From the human T2T-CHM13v2.0 reference genome, Homo sapiens, in the NCBI RefSeq assembly GCF_009914755.1, contig NC_060932.1: DNA of 64,000 nucleotides. One strand, written 5' to 3'. The notes below the pieces were generated by a model. That model worked only from the letters and a program-made list of their open reading frames with translations, had not been told where the DNA came from and searched no databases. The position numbers and the translations under genes are program-made. This document shows, in pieces, positions 7,061-10,907 of the stretch (its first letter is position 1; each line of letters starts with the position of its first letter).

Positions 7061-7328
7061 ACCCTCTCAGCCTATGACACTTTGTTACAGCAGCCTGAGC
7101 AAACTAAGACACTGCCTACACGTGCATACCGACTCCCATATCTCCCAAAGCCTCGGTATCTTCTTTCATAGCATTCCCTCCATCTCCAGTGTTCTTTGTC
7201 CCACTTTTTACCTCCCTTCTTTCATCCCTCCATCATGTCCCTATTCTTCCTGGACCACCTTAGTTACTATCTCCTCCATGAAGCTTTTTAAAATTAACCC
7301 CTAGCCTTCCGGAAGGAAGCGGCTAACT

Positions 7329-7697
7329 ATGGCGACCGCCATGGAGCAGTGGGTTCTGGTGGAGATGGTACAGTTGCTTTACGAGGCTCCTGCTTACCAT
7401 CTTATTTTGGAAGGGATTCTGATACTCTGGATAATCAGACTTCTTTTCTCTAAGACTCACAAATTACAAGAACGATCTGATCTTACAGTCAAGGAAAAAG
7501 AAGAACTGATTGAAGAGTGGCAACCAGAACCTCTTGTTCCTCCTGTCCCAAAAGACCATCCTGCTCTCAACCACAACATCGTTTCAGGACGGAGTCTTGC
7601 TCTGTCACCAGTCTGGAGTGCAGTGGTGCAATCTCGGCTCACTGCAACCTCCACCTCCCGGGTTCAAGCCATTCTCCTGCCTCAGCCTCCCGAGTAG
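7329..7697 (+). pseudogene. SPTLC1: Open 122-aa ORF: SPTLC1 residues 1-87 fused to 35 aa of Alu-derived sequence
   Basis: [42 protein letters not shown]...[24 protein letters not shown] matches the SPTLC1 N-terminus apart from 4 recalled differences (T5M, A16L, Y44H, Y82H). Junction gtttcagg|acggagtc at 7588/7589. Confidence 0.92.
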
Positions 7698-7990
7698 CTG
7701 GGACTACAGGCACAAGCCACCATGCCGGCCTAATTTTTGTATTTTCAGTAGAGACAGAGTTTCACCATGTTGGCCAGAATGATCTCGATCTCCTTTTTTT
7801 AATTAAAAAGTAAACTTTAATGTCGAAAATGCAAACTTGGGGAGGGCAGAAAGATCACACACAAGGCTGTCACTTCACACTTGGAAGGTTGCGCCGCCGT
7901 CCTGTCTGCAAAGTGAGGAGTGCCAAGTGTGATCCGCCCGCCTGGGCCTCCCAAAGTGCTGGATTACAGGCATGAGCCACCACGCCTGCC
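7589..7990 (-). mobile_element. Exonised antisense AluS inside the retrocopy, split by an SVA2-like insert
   Basis: Alu 7589-7793 lacks its poly(T) (spliced off at the gag|acggagtc acceptor) and resumes at gtgatccgcccgcc (about 7929) to about 7990. Confidence 0.9.
7794..7926 (-). mobile_element. SVA2-like element: unique 3' region, poly(A) and one VNTR remnant
   Basis: Minus strand reads gcaaccttccaagtgtgaagtgacagccttgtgtgtgatctttctgccctccccaagtttgcattttcgacattaaagtttactttttaattaaaaaaa, recalled as the SVA2 3' unique region. Adjacent gccgccgtcctgtctgcaaagtgaggagtgcc resembles an SVA VNTR unit. Confidence 0.7.
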
Positions 7991-9214
7991 CTGCCGTGTC
8001 TTCTTTCTCCTCCTAAGCAGCTGTTTTCGTCTCCTGAATTTTGATGTTCTACTTAACACCCTCATGTTCTTACGCATGTTGCCCTGCTGGAGGCGTCCTT
8101 CTCTTTGGGAAGCCTGACCCACCAACAGTGCCTCAGGAGATAGACATGGAAGCTTAGCCGGTGGGGGCCCCCCGTCTCTATCCCACCTCAGTTGCAGGGG
8201 AGGGGTCAGTTGCAGCTGCAGTGGTGGCCCCGACAGTTTTCTTTTGCGGGACCTGTGGCCGGCAGCTCTGGGTGGAGAAGACCTACTTGATCCAAGAACT
8301 GCAGGATCCTTGGGCTGCATGTCCTCCCCCACCATCAGCAAGCCTGGAGAGCTGGGCAGGTGGTCTTTACCCAGCACCTTCAAGGCCGCCTTCTCTGGCC
8401 ACAGGGAGCAGCCCGGAACTGGGGCAGGGAGCACTGTTGGAAGTGGGTCAGGCTTCCCAAAGGGAAGGATGCCACCAGCAGGGCTGTGTGAACTGGCGAC
8501 TCCATGGCCCTTGGAGTAGAAACTCACTGCATGCACCTGGGCCTTGTCAGTCTGGTTCTTTTCTGTCAAGCTCTTGAGGTGGACATTTCCCTCCAAGGGC
8601 CTGGGATTGTACCAGGAGGAAGTGAGGTTTCCCTGAGTCTCCAGGGGCCTAGAGGTGGAGGCTGCTTCCCCATTGCTACAGGGGCCCATTTTATTGTCCT
8701 CCTGCCCCTGGGTCTCTACCTGGTCTTTCACCTCCATTGCTTCTTTGGGCTCTTCTGCCCTCACCTCCATCTTCAGGAGCCTGGCTGGGATCACCTGCTC
8801 ATCTAATGAAGGAAGTTGAAGGTTAAACTTGCCTCTGAGACGAGGGAGCCTCACGGGGCTGAGGTGTCCAAACATCATGGAGTTGCGAGCAGACAGCATG
8901 GGTTTCTTCCTTGAGGGGGGGCTCCAGACCACAGGAGGCAGGACCTTCTGTGGGGTGCCCGTGTTCCGAGAGATAAGACACAGCCTGACAGGGGCGCCGT
9001 CCCACCTGACTGGAAAAGAAGGCCCAAGGTGTCGCTGACGGTTGAAGAGGAGTGGGAAACGGCCCCAGATTCCCGGGGCAGGCACAGGTGCGGGAGCTGC
9101 AGGGTGAGCCGGGCCAGCTGGGAAGGCCTCACAGACAAGACGAGCAGGTTGCCGATGGCGTGGCCAGGACCTGCGGTGGGACCAGGAACAAAATACGCTT
9201 AGTGAGTTGCCCAT
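7964..9214 (-). CDS. Intact intronless UPF0607-family (NPAP1/POM121-related) ORF, 416 aa from the first ATG; coding status unproven
   Basis: MGNSLSVF...GEAASTSRPLETQG...PLEGNV...GKPDP...WDRDGGPPPAKLPCLS is collinear with the recalled NPAP1 N-terminal ~370 aa (MGNLLSKF...GEASSTSRSQGTQG...PLEGNV...GKPDP...WDRGELPPPAKLPCLS). No internal stop. The stop codon comes from the Alu (ggtggctcatgcctgTAA). Confidence 0.75.
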   Translation of the reverse strand: MGNSLSVFCSWSHRRSWPRHRQPARLVCEAFPAGPAHPAAPAPVPAPGIWGRFPLLFNRQRHLGPSFPVRWDGAPVRLCLISRNTGTPQKVLPPVVWSPPSRKKPMLSARNSMMFGHLSPVRLPRLRGKFNLQLPSLDEQVIPARLLKMEVRAEEPKEAMEVKDQVETQGQEDNKMGPCSNGEAASTSRPLETQGNLTSSWYNPRPLEGNVHLKSLTEKNQTDKAQVHAVSFYSKGHGVASSHSPAGGILPFGKPDPLPTVLPAPVPGCSLWPEKAALKVLGKDHLPSSPGLLMVGEDMQPKDPAVLGSSRSSPPRAAGHRSRKRKLSGPPLQLQLTPPLQLRWDRDGGPPPAKLPCLSPEALLVGQASQREGRLQQGNMRKNMRVLSRTSKFRRRKQLLRRRKKTRQGRRGGSCL

Positions 9215-10622
9215 TTTAAGCGAGTTGTGCACAGACGAAACTAAGGGTCAGAAACAGAGAGGATACTCCTAAGTCACCCACTTCTCTGTGGCCGGGTGCA
9301 CACTGGGCATCTGGGAGTTTATGACATCACCATGGGGCTGGTGACAGAGCCAGGGTGTGGAGGAGTGCTTAGGAGCCCAGCGAGGGTGCCTACAAGAGGA
9401 GTCAAAGGGCAAAGGGTGAGACCCTTCCACCGGTCCAGCTGGACTCTAGCCTCAGGGACGTCCTGCTCCTGGGGGCAGGTGTGTGGCCCTGGATGGGCCC
9501 CCCTGTGGGGCTGTTGGGGGTGCGGGGCTGATCCACCAGAGCCCTTCCACCTGGCACCTGGCCCAGATGCTGGCTGGCATCCAGTGGCCCTGTCTTGGCC
9601 GGCCCTATCCCCCAGGTTACAGGGCCAGAACCTGGAAGCAGAGCGCAGGACCAGCCAGATCCTGCCAGGCTCCCCCGGGGCCTCTCCAGTGCCTCTGTGC
9701 CGCCTGGAGCCAGGCCCGCCTTCTCCATGGCTGCCGTGGCCTCAAGGCATGCCTCGCTCCGCAAGTTTCCAAAGAGAGGACGCGGTGCCCTGACCTGACT
9801 GGATGCGCCTCTTACCACATGCCTCCCTGGCAGGCAGGGTCTCCACTTTTTACAAATTTGCCTGAGACCATTCCTCAGGTCATTCAGGTGGTCATGGCCC
9901 AGCCAGGCTTTGAACCCGGGCTGTGCGATTCCACAGCGGGCGCTCTGGCCTGTGTGCCTCATGATCATGGACACAGCATCTATTCTTATTTTTTCCTGTA
10001 GTCCTGGGGTACTTAGCACCATGGCATATCTGTAATAAGCACATGCACACCTCGAAGGAGGTCTTCACTTCAACATACAAGTTGACCATGGCATGCTCTG
10101 GCCTCCAGTCCTCTACAAAGATGTAGGGCAGGAACTACCAGTTGTCAGCACAGCACCATCCCACATTGCTCTTCTAATGGAGCCTTTCACCTCAGATGTT
10201 GTTTCTCGACTGATGGGAAGGATCCAAGTATGTAAAGATTATGTTCTAGATCAGCTTTGGTCTGTCCTAAAAGAAATTTGCCAGTGAATTATTCCATATG
10301 GATAAAAGTCAGTTTCTCTGGTCTTCCTGGAATGTGTCTAGAAAGCAAATACATTATTTACAAGTTCATAGTAGATCAATGTATTGGATTAAAATATGAC
10401 AAACATAATTTGGTCATTGTGAGCATGCCAGCTCAGTCAACTATTCACCACACATGATGCCCTAAATATAACTCTAGGTTTTCTTATGCCCAAAAGAGGG
10501 ACATACTCTTGGGTGTCTGGACTAGGGAAACATGTATGAAAAACCATTTGGCCACTCTACATCTTATTATTGGAGAATTGAAACCCTCTATATTCAAAGA
10601 TATTATTAAAAGGCAAGAAGTT

Positions 10623-10670
10623 AAAAAAATAAATAAATAAATAAATAAATAAATAAATAAATAAATAAAA
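10623..10670 (+). repeat. (TAAA)n microsatellite derived from the retrocopy poly(A) tail
   Basis: aaaaaaataaataaataaa... about 10 units, directly before the TSD. Confidence 0.95.
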
Positions 10671-10907
10671 TTAACCCCTAAAATATGCAATTGCTCTATT
10701 GTTGTCCTTCCTACACCTTGTTTACCTCTGCATGGTGGGCTTAATACATTCTGCCTTGATTTGTGATTAATCTGTGCAACTGCTTTATACCCCCCTACTA
10801 GATAATGAGTTATCTAAAGACAATGGCTGAGACGAATTCATCTTTGTTCAGTTCAAGTTATATTTACGAGGCCCCTGCTGTATGCACCCAGCACTATGCC
10901 AGGAGGT

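What the first reader, a model, noticed from the sequence alone, without database searches (positions are those of the whole stretch)
7290..10680. Piggy-back retrogene cassette: an antisense NPAP1/UPF0607 gene copied with its upstream region and terminator inside an SPTLC1 retrocopy
Seen: one L1-type insertion (14-bp TSD, TT/AAAA site, ATTAAA plus tail) holds intronless SPTLC1 exons 1-3 followed by a 3-kb terminal exon. That exon carries, on the opposite strand, an uninterrupted 416-codon ORF, about 1.4 kb of its upstream sequence (GC-rich at 9230-9950), and a downstream ATTAAA (7816-7821, minus) with an A7 tract. Established: retrocopies normally lose their promoter, and UPF0607 is a multicopy primate family related to NPAP1/POM121. 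Inference: because the passenger lies antisense in the host's 3'UTR, each retrotransposition copies a self-contained transcription unit. Copies could then be expressed from birth, explaining how the family amplified. The family is known; this hitch-hiking logic and the activity of this copy are the open questions.
Basis: partly seen in the sequence, partly recalled or inferred. Interest (0 to 1): 0.85.

Follow-up and report, generated by a model that had tools for sequence, protein, structure and literature searches.

The report
SPTLC1 retrocopy carrying antisense NPAP1-like gene
This is one of nine scattered human retrocopies of a short SPTLC1 transcript whose last exon carries, backwards, a small NPAP1-like gene with its upstream DNA, which explains how that gene family multiplied but not whether the copies do anything.

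Summary
Window 7304-10666 is an L1-type processed retrocopy: a 14-bp TSD, spliced SPTLC1 exons 1-3, a 3-kb terminal exon, ATTAAA and an A-rich tail. On the minus strand the terminal exon carries an intact 416-codon POM121/NPAP1-family (UPF0607) ORF. Upstream of the ORF lie 1.3 kb colinear with the NPAP1 locus from -1685 to -347.

The predicted source exists. In SPTLC1 intron 3 (chr9) the same exon starts at the T-run+AG of an antisense Alu and ends at the same ATTAAA. Nine spliced retrocopies, each with its own TSD, radiate in a star tree with the source.

- The "terminator" (ATTAAA+A7) is the tail of an SVA2-like VNTR retroelement inside an Alu. Its VNTR is 642-1245 bp in sister copies and 37 bp here.
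- Amplification was driven by the SPTLC1 promoter at one master locus, not by passenger expression.
- The ORF shows no purifying selection (dN/dS about 1.2-1.4), and indels are as frequent inside it as outside.
- Stops are fewer than expected (2 vs 7-8.5).
- The upstream region is GC-rich but not a CpG island.

Transcription of this copy could not be tested. I found no paper linking SPTLC1 and NPAP1/UPF0607. Verdict: real, mechanistically neat, probably neutral.

The parts
7290..7303 (+). 5' target-site duplication AAAATTAACCCCTA, preceded by TTTTT (L1 endonuclease-type TT/AAAA site)
   Evidence: identical 14-mer at 10667-10680
7304..7588 (+). Spliced SPTLC1 exons 1-3 (5'UTR, ATG at 7329, 86 SPTLC1 codons), introns removed
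   Evidence: the three parts map to C9:104281800-882, 104278941-9051 and 104275229-323 at 96-99% identity. Searches show GT donors after exon 1 and exon 3 and the AG acceptor of exon 3 at the source
7589..10624 (+). Alternative 3' terminal exon of SPTLC1, taken from intron 3 of the source gene. It is 3036 bp here and 3676 bp at the source
   Evidence: At the source the exon starts right after T20-GAG of an antisense Alu and ends at the same ATTAAA site
7589..7793 (-). Alu, 3' two-thirds (sense on the minus strand). At the source its poly(A), read as a T-run on the plus strand, supplies the polypyrimidine tract and AG acceptor
   Evidence: (many Alu matches to q285-491)
7794..7892 (-). 3' unique part and A7 tail of an SVA2-like VNTR retroelement inserted in the Alu.
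   Evidence: 40 of 40 scored places (158 candidates) across the genome match at 94-100%; passages of PMC4432496 describe SVA2 as a 39/40-bp VNTR plus a unique 3' sequence
7893..7925 (.). Remnant of the VNTR, about one unit, inverted relative to the array in sister copies. The rest of the array is deleted in this copy
   Evidence: q589-621 matches sister VNTRs on the opposite strand; 40-bp unit, 15.8 copies at the source; 37 bp here vs 642-1245 bp
7926..7990 (-). Alu left arm. It supplies the last 9 or so codons and the stop of the ORF
   Evidence: Alu matches 7929-8001
7964..9214 (-). 416-codon UPF0607 (NPAP1/POM121-family) ORF, intact in this copy. 8131-8999 is homologous to NPAP1 codons about 65-363. 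The tail 7964-8130 is not NPAP1-like
8081..8131 (.). Inverted copy (89%) of 8431-8484, lying exactly where NPAP1 homology ends. It marks an old rearrangement that made the C-terminal tail
   Evidence: reciprocal minus-strand self matches in every copy
9215..10535 (-). Ancestral upstream region of the passenger. 9557-9860 matches NPAP1 -649..-347 (72%) and 9872-10535 matches NPAP1 -1685..-1018 (76%). GC-rich but CpG-poor. RefSeq places the 5' end of its pseudogene model at 9287
   Evidence: annotation given with the finding
10605..10610 (+). ATTAAA poly(A) signal of the host transcript, 14 nt before the cleavage site
   Evidence: The source has a U-rich downstream element and no A-run
10625..10666 (+). 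Untemplated poly(A) tail, now A6(TAAA)n
10667..10680 (+). 3' target-site duplication

Best explanation
The element is a full-length processed retrocopy, made by the L1 machinery, of a short alternative SPTLC1 transcript.

At the source gene on chr9, exon 3 is spliced to a terminal exon inside intron 3. That exon starts at the T-run+AG of an antisense Alu and ends at an ATTAAA site. It reads through, backwards, a truncated NPAP1 paralogue (UPF0607), 1.3 kb of that gene's ancestral 5' flank, and an SVA2-like element sitting in the Alu just 3' of the ORF.

Each retrotransposition of the host mRNA therefore copied the whole antisense unit as passive cargo. This happened at least nine times from one master locus, probably in the hominoid ancestor.

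Shown here: the anatomy, the source, the independent insertions and the star phylogeny.

Inferred: the copies, this one included, are mostly neutral cargo. The protein sequence is not under purifying selection. Five intact ORFs among nine retrocopies is only modestly more than decay over about 2% divergence would leave. This copy is at most a weakly transcribed young ORF or pseudogene.
For: Retrocopy hallmarks: TSD, TT/AAAA site, intron loss, ATTAAA and tail.

Source: exons 1, 2 and 3 and the terminal exon lie in order on C9:104.27-104.28 Mb. The acceptor is ttttt-gAG|ACGGAG inside an Alu. The poly(A) site has a U-rich downstream element and no genomic A-run.

Independent insertions: 9 of 9 spliced copies end at the same site or up to 13 nt downstream of it, each followed by an A-rich tail. 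8 of 9 have a clear TSD of their own; chr6:23.7M is unclear.

Isoform: all 9 places in the genome that hold spliced SPTLC1 exons 1-3 are this isoform. All 13 candidates were scored; the other 4 are the gene's own three exons and exon 3 in the DNA duplicate.

Tree: 8 of 9 inner branches are unresolved and end branches are 0.013-0.026.

Passenger identity: Pfam POM121 at E 2e-20. Named UPF0607 homologues exist in apes. The cassette is colinear with the NPAP1 locus from -1685 to +1089.

Neutrality:
- Pooled dN/dS against the consensus is 1.19 (72 synonymous, 259 nonsynonymous).
- The ORF substitution rate is at least that of the flanks in 10 of 11 copies. The non-CpG rate is 0.0157-0.019 in the ORF against 0.0135 overall.
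- Indels: 7 in 1251 bp of ORF against 10 in 1448 bp outside it, over 11 copies.
- The ORF is broken in 3 of 9 retrocopies and cut at codon 408 in a fourth. It is also broken in the source and in the DNA duplicate.
- The CpG transition rate is 0.15 per site against 0.007 for other transitions. Upstream CpG o/e is 0.19-0.68. Both fit DNA that is methylated in the germ line.
Against: Stop-creating substitutions in the ORF frame are fewer than a spectrum-preserving permutation expects. Counting all substitutions: 2 observed against 8.5 expected, P=0.008. Counting distinct events: 2 against 7.1, P=0.025.

Four of the five other frames, and all six frames of the upstream region, behave as expected. 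The codon-aligned antisense frame is also low (3 against 8.9). This could mean selection to keep the frame open, or a context artefact.

Synonymous changes are also fewer than expected (72 against 90.6, P about 0.01). That is the pattern reported for positively selected NPAP1 (abstract of PMC3942032).

416-aa forms are annotated in gorilla and bonobo, with 398 aa in orang-utan and 391 aa in gibbon.

A sperm small-RNA cluster at hg19 chr9:94866402-94868261 (+) is listed in PMC4436662 supplementary table 4. By my recalled hg19 position of SPTLC1 it falls on the UPF0607-sense strand of the source exon. That would mean the unit is transcribed there.

Expression of this copy was not testable.
Confidence: 0.72

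Rival explanations
1. The passenger is a working gene. Each copy arrives with a usable promoter and terminator, is transcribed from the minus strand, and several copies (this one included) make a fast-evolving nucleoporin-like protein kept open by selection.
For: 1.3 kb of ancestral 5' flank is carried along.

The ORF is intact in 5 of 9 retrocopies.

Stops are depleted at P 0.008-0.025 in the true frame, with excess amino-acid change as in NPAP1.

Ape homologues of 391-416 aa exist.

The RefSeq pseudogene model starts at 9287, 73 nt upstream of the ATG (annotation given with the finding). A TATA-like CATAAA lies about 30 nt further upstream on the minus strand (read by eye).

NPAP1P6 is reported as mainly testis-expressed (passage of PMC4423968). 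NPAP1P9 and SPTLC1P4 appear in a tumour RNA-seq gene list. I could not map these names to copies.
Against: dN/dS is 1.2-1.4, with no constraint on the protein.

Indels are as frequent in the ORF as outside it. 5 of 11 young copies are frameshifted, including the master copy.

Stop depletion also appears in the codon-aligned antisense frame. It is spread over already-frameshifted copies: 1 stop in 5 such copies against about 3.9 expected.

There is no CpG island and CpG decay is fast.

The proximal 150 bp upstream is not significantly conserved (16 substitutions against 21 expected).

RefSeq calls this copy a pseudogene.

The mass-spectrometry mentions are single low-score table rows.
Confidence: 0.2
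2. The relevant product is the plus-strand (SPTLC1-sense) RNA. Because it is antisense to NPAP1/UPF0607, it could feed small-RNA or piRNA pathways that act on the NPAP1 family in the male germ line.
For: PMC4436662 (passages) reports a chr9 piRNA cluster processed from the strand antisense to an NPAP1 pseudogene (NPAP1P6).

The host transcript at the source is by construction a long polyadenylated RNA antisense to UPF0607.

An older 5'-truncated retrocopy at chr8:36.6 Mb uses the same poly(A) site. This antisense transcript therefore predates the split between the SPTLC1-intron copy and its older chr9 paralogue.
Against: Retrocopies such as this one do not carry the SPTLC1 promoter, so plus-strand transcription here would need a chance promoter.

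No chr8 small-RNA cluster in the part of supplementary table 4 that I read lies near this window's hg19 place. That place is my recalled estimate.

I could not establish which chr9 copy is NPAP1P6.
Confidence: 0.06
3. The NPAP1-like part entered an existing SPTLC1 retrocopy later as a separate insertion, or the copies spread by DNA-level segmental duplication rather than through RNA.
For: Two family members are DNA-level duplicates. One at chr9:94.58 Mb shares 10.6 kb at 95% identity, including exon 3 and intron sequence. One at chr9:100.01 Mb shares 6.7 kb at 87-91%.
Against: The same order of parts is present at the intron-bearing source and in all 9 spliced copies.

The 9 copies lack introns. 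Each ends in a tail that is not in the source, and each has different flanks and its own TSD.
Confidence: 0.02

Closest known systems
UPF0607 / NPAP1 / NPAP1L / POM121 retrogene family (Neumann et al. 2014, PMC3942032; abstract and passages read)
   Same: The ORF is a UPF0607 member. It hits Pfam POM121, its N-terminus (MGNSLS...) resembles NPAP1's (MGNLLS...), it is intronless, and the family is primate-restricted.
   Different: The paper infers duplication or retrotransposition of the gene itself and never mentions SPTLC1 (0 occurrences). Here the young 416-aa subfamily was copied as antisense cargo of another gene's mRNA, so its own mRNA was not the template.
PMCHL1/PMCHL2, born by retroposition of an antisense PMCH mRNA (abstract of PMC2621205 seen in the listing)
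   Same: A retrocopy made from a transcript that runs antisense to a gene, so the gene sequence lands in reverse orientation relative to the poly(A) tail.
   Different: PMCHL carries only part of PMCH and no complete ORF plus 5' flank. It is a single event followed by a DNA duplication, not a burst of nine.
Ordinary processed pseudogenes / retrocopies of protein-coding genes (reviews PMC5408686 and PMC5470649; only listings and NPAP1 passages read)
   Same: TSD, poly(A) tail, intron loss, L1 target site, and loss of the host promoter.
   Different: The template is a prematurely polyadenylated isoform whose last exon is intronic DNA holding another transcription unit. The retrocopy is 'promoter-less' only for the host, not for the cargo.
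Alu exonization and intronic polyadenylation isoforms (recalled general knowledge, no call)
   Same: The 3' splice site is created by the T-run and AG of an antisense Alu.
   Different: Here the Alu exon is a 3.7-kb terminal exon that became a highly successful retrotransposition template.
SVA2, the VNTR + unique-3'-end precursor of SVA/LAVA/PVA/FVA (PMC4432496, passages)
   Same: 40-bp GC-rich repeat unit, a dispersed unique 3' end of about 100 bp, and a short poly(A) tail.
   Different: Not compared with a reference consensus. In this window the VNTR is reduced to 37 bp.

Membership tests
L1-mediated processed retrocopy | Introns of the parent gene removed at the parent's exon boundaries | tested here: met
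   exons 1, 2 and 3 are contiguous in the window but 2.7 and 3.6 kb apart at C9. GT donors follow exon 1 and exon 3.
L1-mediated processed retrocopy | Untemplated poly(A) tail after a poly(A) signal | tested here: met
   ATTAAA at 10605-10610. The tail at 10625-10666 is absent from the source, which continues with cttctgtcatttt.
L1-mediated processed retrocopy | Target-site duplication and TT/AAAA-type nick site | tested here: met
   14-bp TSD; 8 of 9 spliced copies have a clear TSD of their own and 1 is unclear.
UPF0607 / NPAP1 (POM121 family) | POM121-family domain and named homologues | tested here: met
   PF15229 at E 2e-20 (74 bits, cutoff 27); 69 proteins found, with the named ones called UPF0607 in apes and monkeys.
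UPF0607 / NPAP1 (POM121 family) | Colinearity with the NPAP1 locus | tested here: met
   three colinear blocks from -1685 to +1089 relative to the NPAP1 ATG, at 67-76% identity.
Functional (selected) retrogene | Purifying selection on the protein (dN/dS clearly below 1) | tested here: not met
   pooled dN/dS 1.19; ratio 1.31 on distinct events.
Functional (selected) retrogene | Reading frame kept open beyond neutral expectation | tested here: inconclusive
   Stops: 2 against 7.1-8.5 expected (P 0.008-0.025). Indels are not depleted (7 against 10). 5 of 11 young copies are frameshifted.
Functional (selected) retrogene | Transcription and translation of the copy | not testable with these tools
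   No expression data are held. Only indirect hints were found.
SVA2 VNTR retroelement | 39/40-bp VNTR followed by a family-specific unique 3' sequence and poly(A) | tested here: met
   40-bp unit with 15.8 copies at the source; the 3' part matches 40 of 40 scored places (158 candidates). In the window only the 3' part and 37 bp remain. No reference consensus was compared.
CpG-island promoter | CpG o/e above 0.6 with GC above 0.5 over 200 bp or more | tested here: not met
   in the inferred ancestor, o/e is 0.19-0.39 across 9330-9925. Only 9130-9329 reaches 0.68.

The most novel reading that the evidence does not exclude
Antisense piggy-back retrotransposition is a real route of gene-family birth. 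A housekeeping gene's intronic-polyadenylation isoform acted as a vehicle. It seeded the hominoid genome with nine or more promoter-equipped copies of a fast-evolving nucleoporin-like gene. Several of them (five still open in human, this one included) are kept open by selection and expressed in the germ line. The host-sense RNA at the source doubles as an antisense/piRNA precursor against the NPAP1 family.
Probability: 0.15. Interest if true: 0.75.

Novelty: new variant of a known kind. Interest (0 to 1): 0.55.

Why it matters
Retrocopies are taught as arriving without a promoter. Here the cargo, unlike the host, arrives with its own 5' flank.

The result gives a concrete, checkable origin for the multicopy UPF0607 genes, which databases list as separate 'NPAP1 pseudogenes' and 'SPTLC1 pseudogenes'. 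It corrects the assumption that these intronless copies came from their own mRNA.

It also shows that one odd isoform accounts for all nine retrocopies in this genome that contain SPTLC1 exons 1-3. That makes the question 'what makes an mRNA a good L1 template' testable on a natural case.

If the copies prove to be transcribed or selected, this would be a model for promoter-carrying retroduplication. If not, it is a tidy piece of annotation.

Tried and rejected

My first attempt to find NPAP1 as the longest complete ORF in the fetched chr15 stretch failed, because the ORF ran off the end. Fetching the next 7 kb solved it.

Exact-string anchors for the splice and poly(A) sites failed at the source. 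Fuzzy matching replaced them.

I tried to place NPAP1P6 and the other family members among the small-RNA clusters of PMC4436662 supplementary table 4. Only one cluster could be tentatively assigned, to the source exon, and that rests on a recalled hg19 position. The names NPAP1P6, NPAP1P9 and SPTLC1P4 could not be mapped to copies.

I looked for a conserved proximal promoter among the 11 copies and found no significant slowing. The slow distal block 9861-10535 (z = -3.3) is AT-rich, so a lower mutation rate is the likelier reason.

The proteomics mentions of UPF0607 are single low-score table rows and I set them aside.

I did not fold or model the protein. It is low-complexity, and a structure would not bear on the question.

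
Full report
**1. What is in the window**

One search shows a 14-bp direct repeat, AAAATTAACCCCTA, at 7290-7303 and 10667-10680. The first copy is preceded by TTTTT, giving a TT/AAAA target site.

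Between the repeats, the plus strand reads in this order:
- the SPTLC1 5'UTR and start codon (7329);
- 86 SPTLC1 codons without introns;
- a junction at 7588|7589 into an antisense Alu;
- about 3 kb of further sequence;
- ATTAAA at 10605-10610;
- the last templated base at 10624;
- an A-rich tail that is now (AAAT)n.

The minus strand holds an uninterrupted 416-codon ORF at 7964-9214. It matches Pfam POM121 (PF15229) at E 2e-20.

**2.

A search of the window's own genome finds the first 283 bases in three pieces on chr9:
- C9:104281800-882
- C9:104278941-9051
- C9:104275229-323

These are on the minus strand at 96-99% identity, with GT donors after exon 1 and exon 3. They are SPTLC1 exons 1-3. 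That name rests on the protein start read and on the annotation of the finding.

The rest of the element matches C9:104272957-104269282 in one colinear block. This lies 2.3 kb downstream of exon 3, inside intron 3.

At the source the block begins immediately after a T20 run plus GAG of an antisense Alu. This is the classic Alu-exon acceptor. It ends at the same ATTAAA, followed by a U-rich stretch and no A-run. The window is therefore a copy of an alternative, prematurely polyadenylated SPTLC1 mRNA.

**3. A burst of independent retrocopies from one master**

Nine places in the genome hold spliced exons 1-3 joined to this terminal exon:
- chr8 (this window)
- chr13
- chr2
- chr10
- chr9:28 Mb
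- chr1
- chr6:64 Mb
- chr6:23.7 Mb
- chr16

All 13 candidates were scored. The other four are the gene's three exons and exon 3 in a DNA duplicate.

Each of the nine ends at the same cleavage site or 4-13 nt downstream of it. The extra bases match the source's downstream sequence. Each has an A-rich tail and different flanks. Eight of nine show a clear TSD of their own; chr6:23.7M is unclear.

The 5' ends fall within about 25 nt of each other in the SPTLC1 leader.

An ML tree of the 2.7-kb core places the nine retrocopies, the source and one DNA duplicate in an unresolved star. Eight of nine inner branches have support below 80. End branches are 0.013-0.026. The only weakly supported pair, chr13 + chr6:64M (86/93), also shares a longer 5' leader and a downstream cleavage site.

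A star around the source is what a single master gene gives. It is also what the mechanism requires, because daughter copies do not carry the SPTLC1 promoter that drives the template.

**4. Dating**

End branches of about 2% fit roughly 10-25 Myr. That conversion uses a recalled neutral rate of 1.0-1.3e-9 per site per year.

Proteins of the 416-aa type at 90% identity or more to the window ORF occur in gorilla, bonobo, orang-utan (398 aa) and a gibbon (391 aa). The best Old World monkey proteins are 85% or lower. A burst in the hominoid ancestor is the simplest reading. Orthology of insertion sites could not be tested.

**5. What the cargo is**

Aligned on the minus strand, the cassette is colinear with the NPAP1 locus on chr15. 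The NPAP1 ORF is 1156 aa, read out in that call.

| Window | NPAP1, relative to ATG | Identity |
|---|---|---|
| 10535-9872 | -1685..-1018 | 76% |
| 9860-9557 | -649..-347 | 72% |
| 8999-8131 | +194..+1089 | 67% |

The start of the ORF (MGNSLS...) resembles NPAP1's (MGNLLS...). So the '1.4 kb upstream' is real ancestral 5' flank of an NPAP1 paralogue, not random intron.

NPAP1 homology stops at 8131. At that point lies an inverted copy of 8431-8484. The ORF then runs on into an Alu left arm, which supplies the last 9 or so codons.

Positions 7794-7892 match 40 of 40 scored places (158 candidates) all over the genome at 94-100% identity. In the sister copies this part is preceded by a 40-bp GC-rich VNTR, with 15.8 units at the source. 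This is the build described for SVA2 elements: 39/40-bp units plus a unique 3' sequence (passages of PMC4432496). The ATTAAA+A7 is thus the tail of an SVA2-like element that inserted into the Alu. It may still serve as a poly(A) site for the cargo, but it was not part of the gene.

In this window the VNTR has been lost: 37 bp, partly inverted, against 642-1245 bp in the ten other young copies.

**6. Deeper history**

- A copy at chr9:94.58 Mb shares 10.6 kb at 95% identity with the SPTLC1 locus, including exon 3 and intron sequence. It is a DNA-level duplicate.
- A copy at chr9:100.01 Mb shares 6.7 kb at 87-91% identity, extending beyond both ends of the terminal exon but not to exon 3. It has a 498-codon ORF. 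It lies 33 kb from a still older relative (78% identity).
- The cassette therefore probably reached SPTLC1 intron 3 by segmental duplication from this chr9 cluster. This is inference.
- A 5'-truncated retrocopy at chr8:36.6 Mb has its own TSD and tail and ends at the same ATTAAA site. It branches before the split of those two loci (96/90 support). So an RNA antisense to UPF0607 that ends at this site was already being retrotransposed earlier.
- With all 20 candidates scored, the whole family in this genome comprises:
  - the 11 young copies;
  - these two older copies (chr9:100.01 Mb and chr8:36.6 Mb);
  - three older chr9 relatives;
  - three short chr10 fragments;
  - NPAP1.

**7. Is the cargo functional?**

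I used the majority consensus of the 11 young copies as the ancestor, which is justified by the star tree.

Against function:
- Substitutions per site in the ORF (0.015-0.030) are not lower than outside it (0.010-0.024).
- Pooled dN/dS is 1.19, from 72 synonymous and 259 nonsynonymous changes.
- Indels number 7 in the ORF and 10 in the slightly longer non-ORF part.
- The ORF is 416 codons in 5 of 9 retrocopies and cut at codon 408 in one. It is frameshifted in three retrocopies, in the source (a 1-bp insertion) and in the DNA duplicate.
- CpG transitions run at 0.15 per site against 0.007 for other transitions.
- The GC-rich upstream region had CpG o/e of only 0.19-0.39 over 9330-9925 even in the inferred ancestor. 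It is not a CpG island and was probably methylated in the germ line.
- The proximal 150 bp upstream is not significantly conserved: 16 substitutions against 21 expected.

In the other direction:
- A permutation that keeps the substitution type and CpG context expects 8.5 stop-creating changes in the ORF frame. Two are seen (P=0.008).
- Many sites are hit in more than one copy (59 of 222). After collapsing repeated hits to distinct events, the figures are 2 against 7.1 (P=0.025).
- Synonymous changes are also fewer than expected (72 against 90.6).
- Ten of the eleven control frames (five others in the ORF region and six upstream) behave as expected. The codon-aligned antisense frame is also low (3 against 8.9).
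- The deficit is shared by copies that are already frameshifted.

I read this as a weak hint of selection for an open frame, not as proof. Taken together, the data fit young cargo drifting close to neutrality.

**8. Expression**

No expression data are held. The hints are these:
- RefSeq starts its pseudogene model for this copy at 9287, 73 nt upstream of the ATG (annotation given with the finding).
- Supplementary table 4 of PMC4436662 lists a sperm small-RNA cluster at hg19 chr9:94866402-94868261 (+). Using my recalled hg19 position of SPTLC1, it would lie in the source exon on the UPF0607-sense strand. It would span from about 90 nt upstream of the ATG into the VNTR.
- The same paper reports piRNAs antisense to 'NPAP1P6' on chr9.
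- PMC4423968 calls NPAP1P6 mainly testis-expressed.
- NPAP1P9 and SPTLC1P4 appear in a tumour RNA-seq table.

I could not link these names to particular copies. No cluster in the part of the table I read lies near this window's estimated hg19 place.

**9. Prior description**

Neumann et al. 2014 (PMC3942032; abstract and passages read) define UPF0607 as primate-specific, intronless, 'likely retrogenes'. They do not mention SPTLC1.

Searches returned no description of the link:
- UPF0607;
- SPTLC1P/NPAP1P and the pseudogene phrases;
- protein and locus identifiers;
- NPAP1 with SPTLC1 (the one hit is a gene list);
- SPTLC1 with retrocopy terms (none of the ten listed papers holds SPTLC1).

The nearest precedent I found is PMCHL1, born from an antisense PMCH mRNA (listing abstract of PMC2621205). 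The library lacks most subscription journals, so this is absence in what was searched, not proof of novelty.

**10. Verdict**

- amplification owes nothing to cargo expression;
- the 'terminator' is a retroelement tail;
- the protein is unconstrained.

The finding is a new variant of a known kind, namely a retrocopy of an intronic-polyadenylation isoform that carries a whole antisense gene unit. It is of moderate interest.

Noticed in passing
window 7893-7925 vs sister copies (e.g. L031 2224-2835, L039 3732-4363): This copy alone has lost the 40-bp VNTR array: 37 bp remain against 642-1245 bp elsewhere. The remnant is inverted relative to the sister arrays. It is unknown whether this happened during reverse transcription or later.
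   Followed up: partly
G000:C8:36596954-36599389 (L043): An older (about 87%) retrocopy of the same antisense transcript, 5'-truncated inside the VNTR. It has its own TSD (AAGAAAGAGTG) and tail at the same ATTAAA site. It branches before the split between the SPTLC1-intron copy and the chr9:100 Mb copy.
   Followed up: yes
G000:C10:80729931-80730606, C10:88260504-88261179, C10:51544204-51544879: Three near-identical fragments of about 0.7 kb hold the Alu joined directly to the 3' end of the ORF, with no SVA2-like insertion. They look like relics of a pre-SVA2 family member spread by chr10 segmental duplications.
   Followed up: no
window 8081-8131 and 8431-8484: A 50-bp inverted repeat (89%) inside the ORF, present in all copies. 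One arm sits exactly where NPAP1 homology ends, so the C-terminal tail of UPF0607 comes from an old inverted duplication plus an Alu.
   Followed up: partly
genome-wide: All nine retrocopies that contain SPTLC1 exons 1-3 are of the short Alu-exon isoform. No retrocopy joining exons 1-3 to canonical downstream exons was seen. 5'-truncated canonical retrocopies were not searched for.
   Followed up: partly
G000:C9:100010025-100014596 (L042): The older chr9 paralogue keeps a 498-codon ORF with extra 64-bp tandem units near its 5' end. Old World monkey UPF0607 proteins (439-464 aa) resemble this form.
   Followed up: no
chr13 (L031) and chr6:64 Mb (L036) copies: These two retrocopies share a longer 5' leader (starting about 10 nt further upstream), a cleavage site 4-8 nt further downstream, and a weakly supported tree pairing (86/93). 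Their flanks and TSDs differ. They may derive from the same allele or the same time slice of the master.
   Followed up: no
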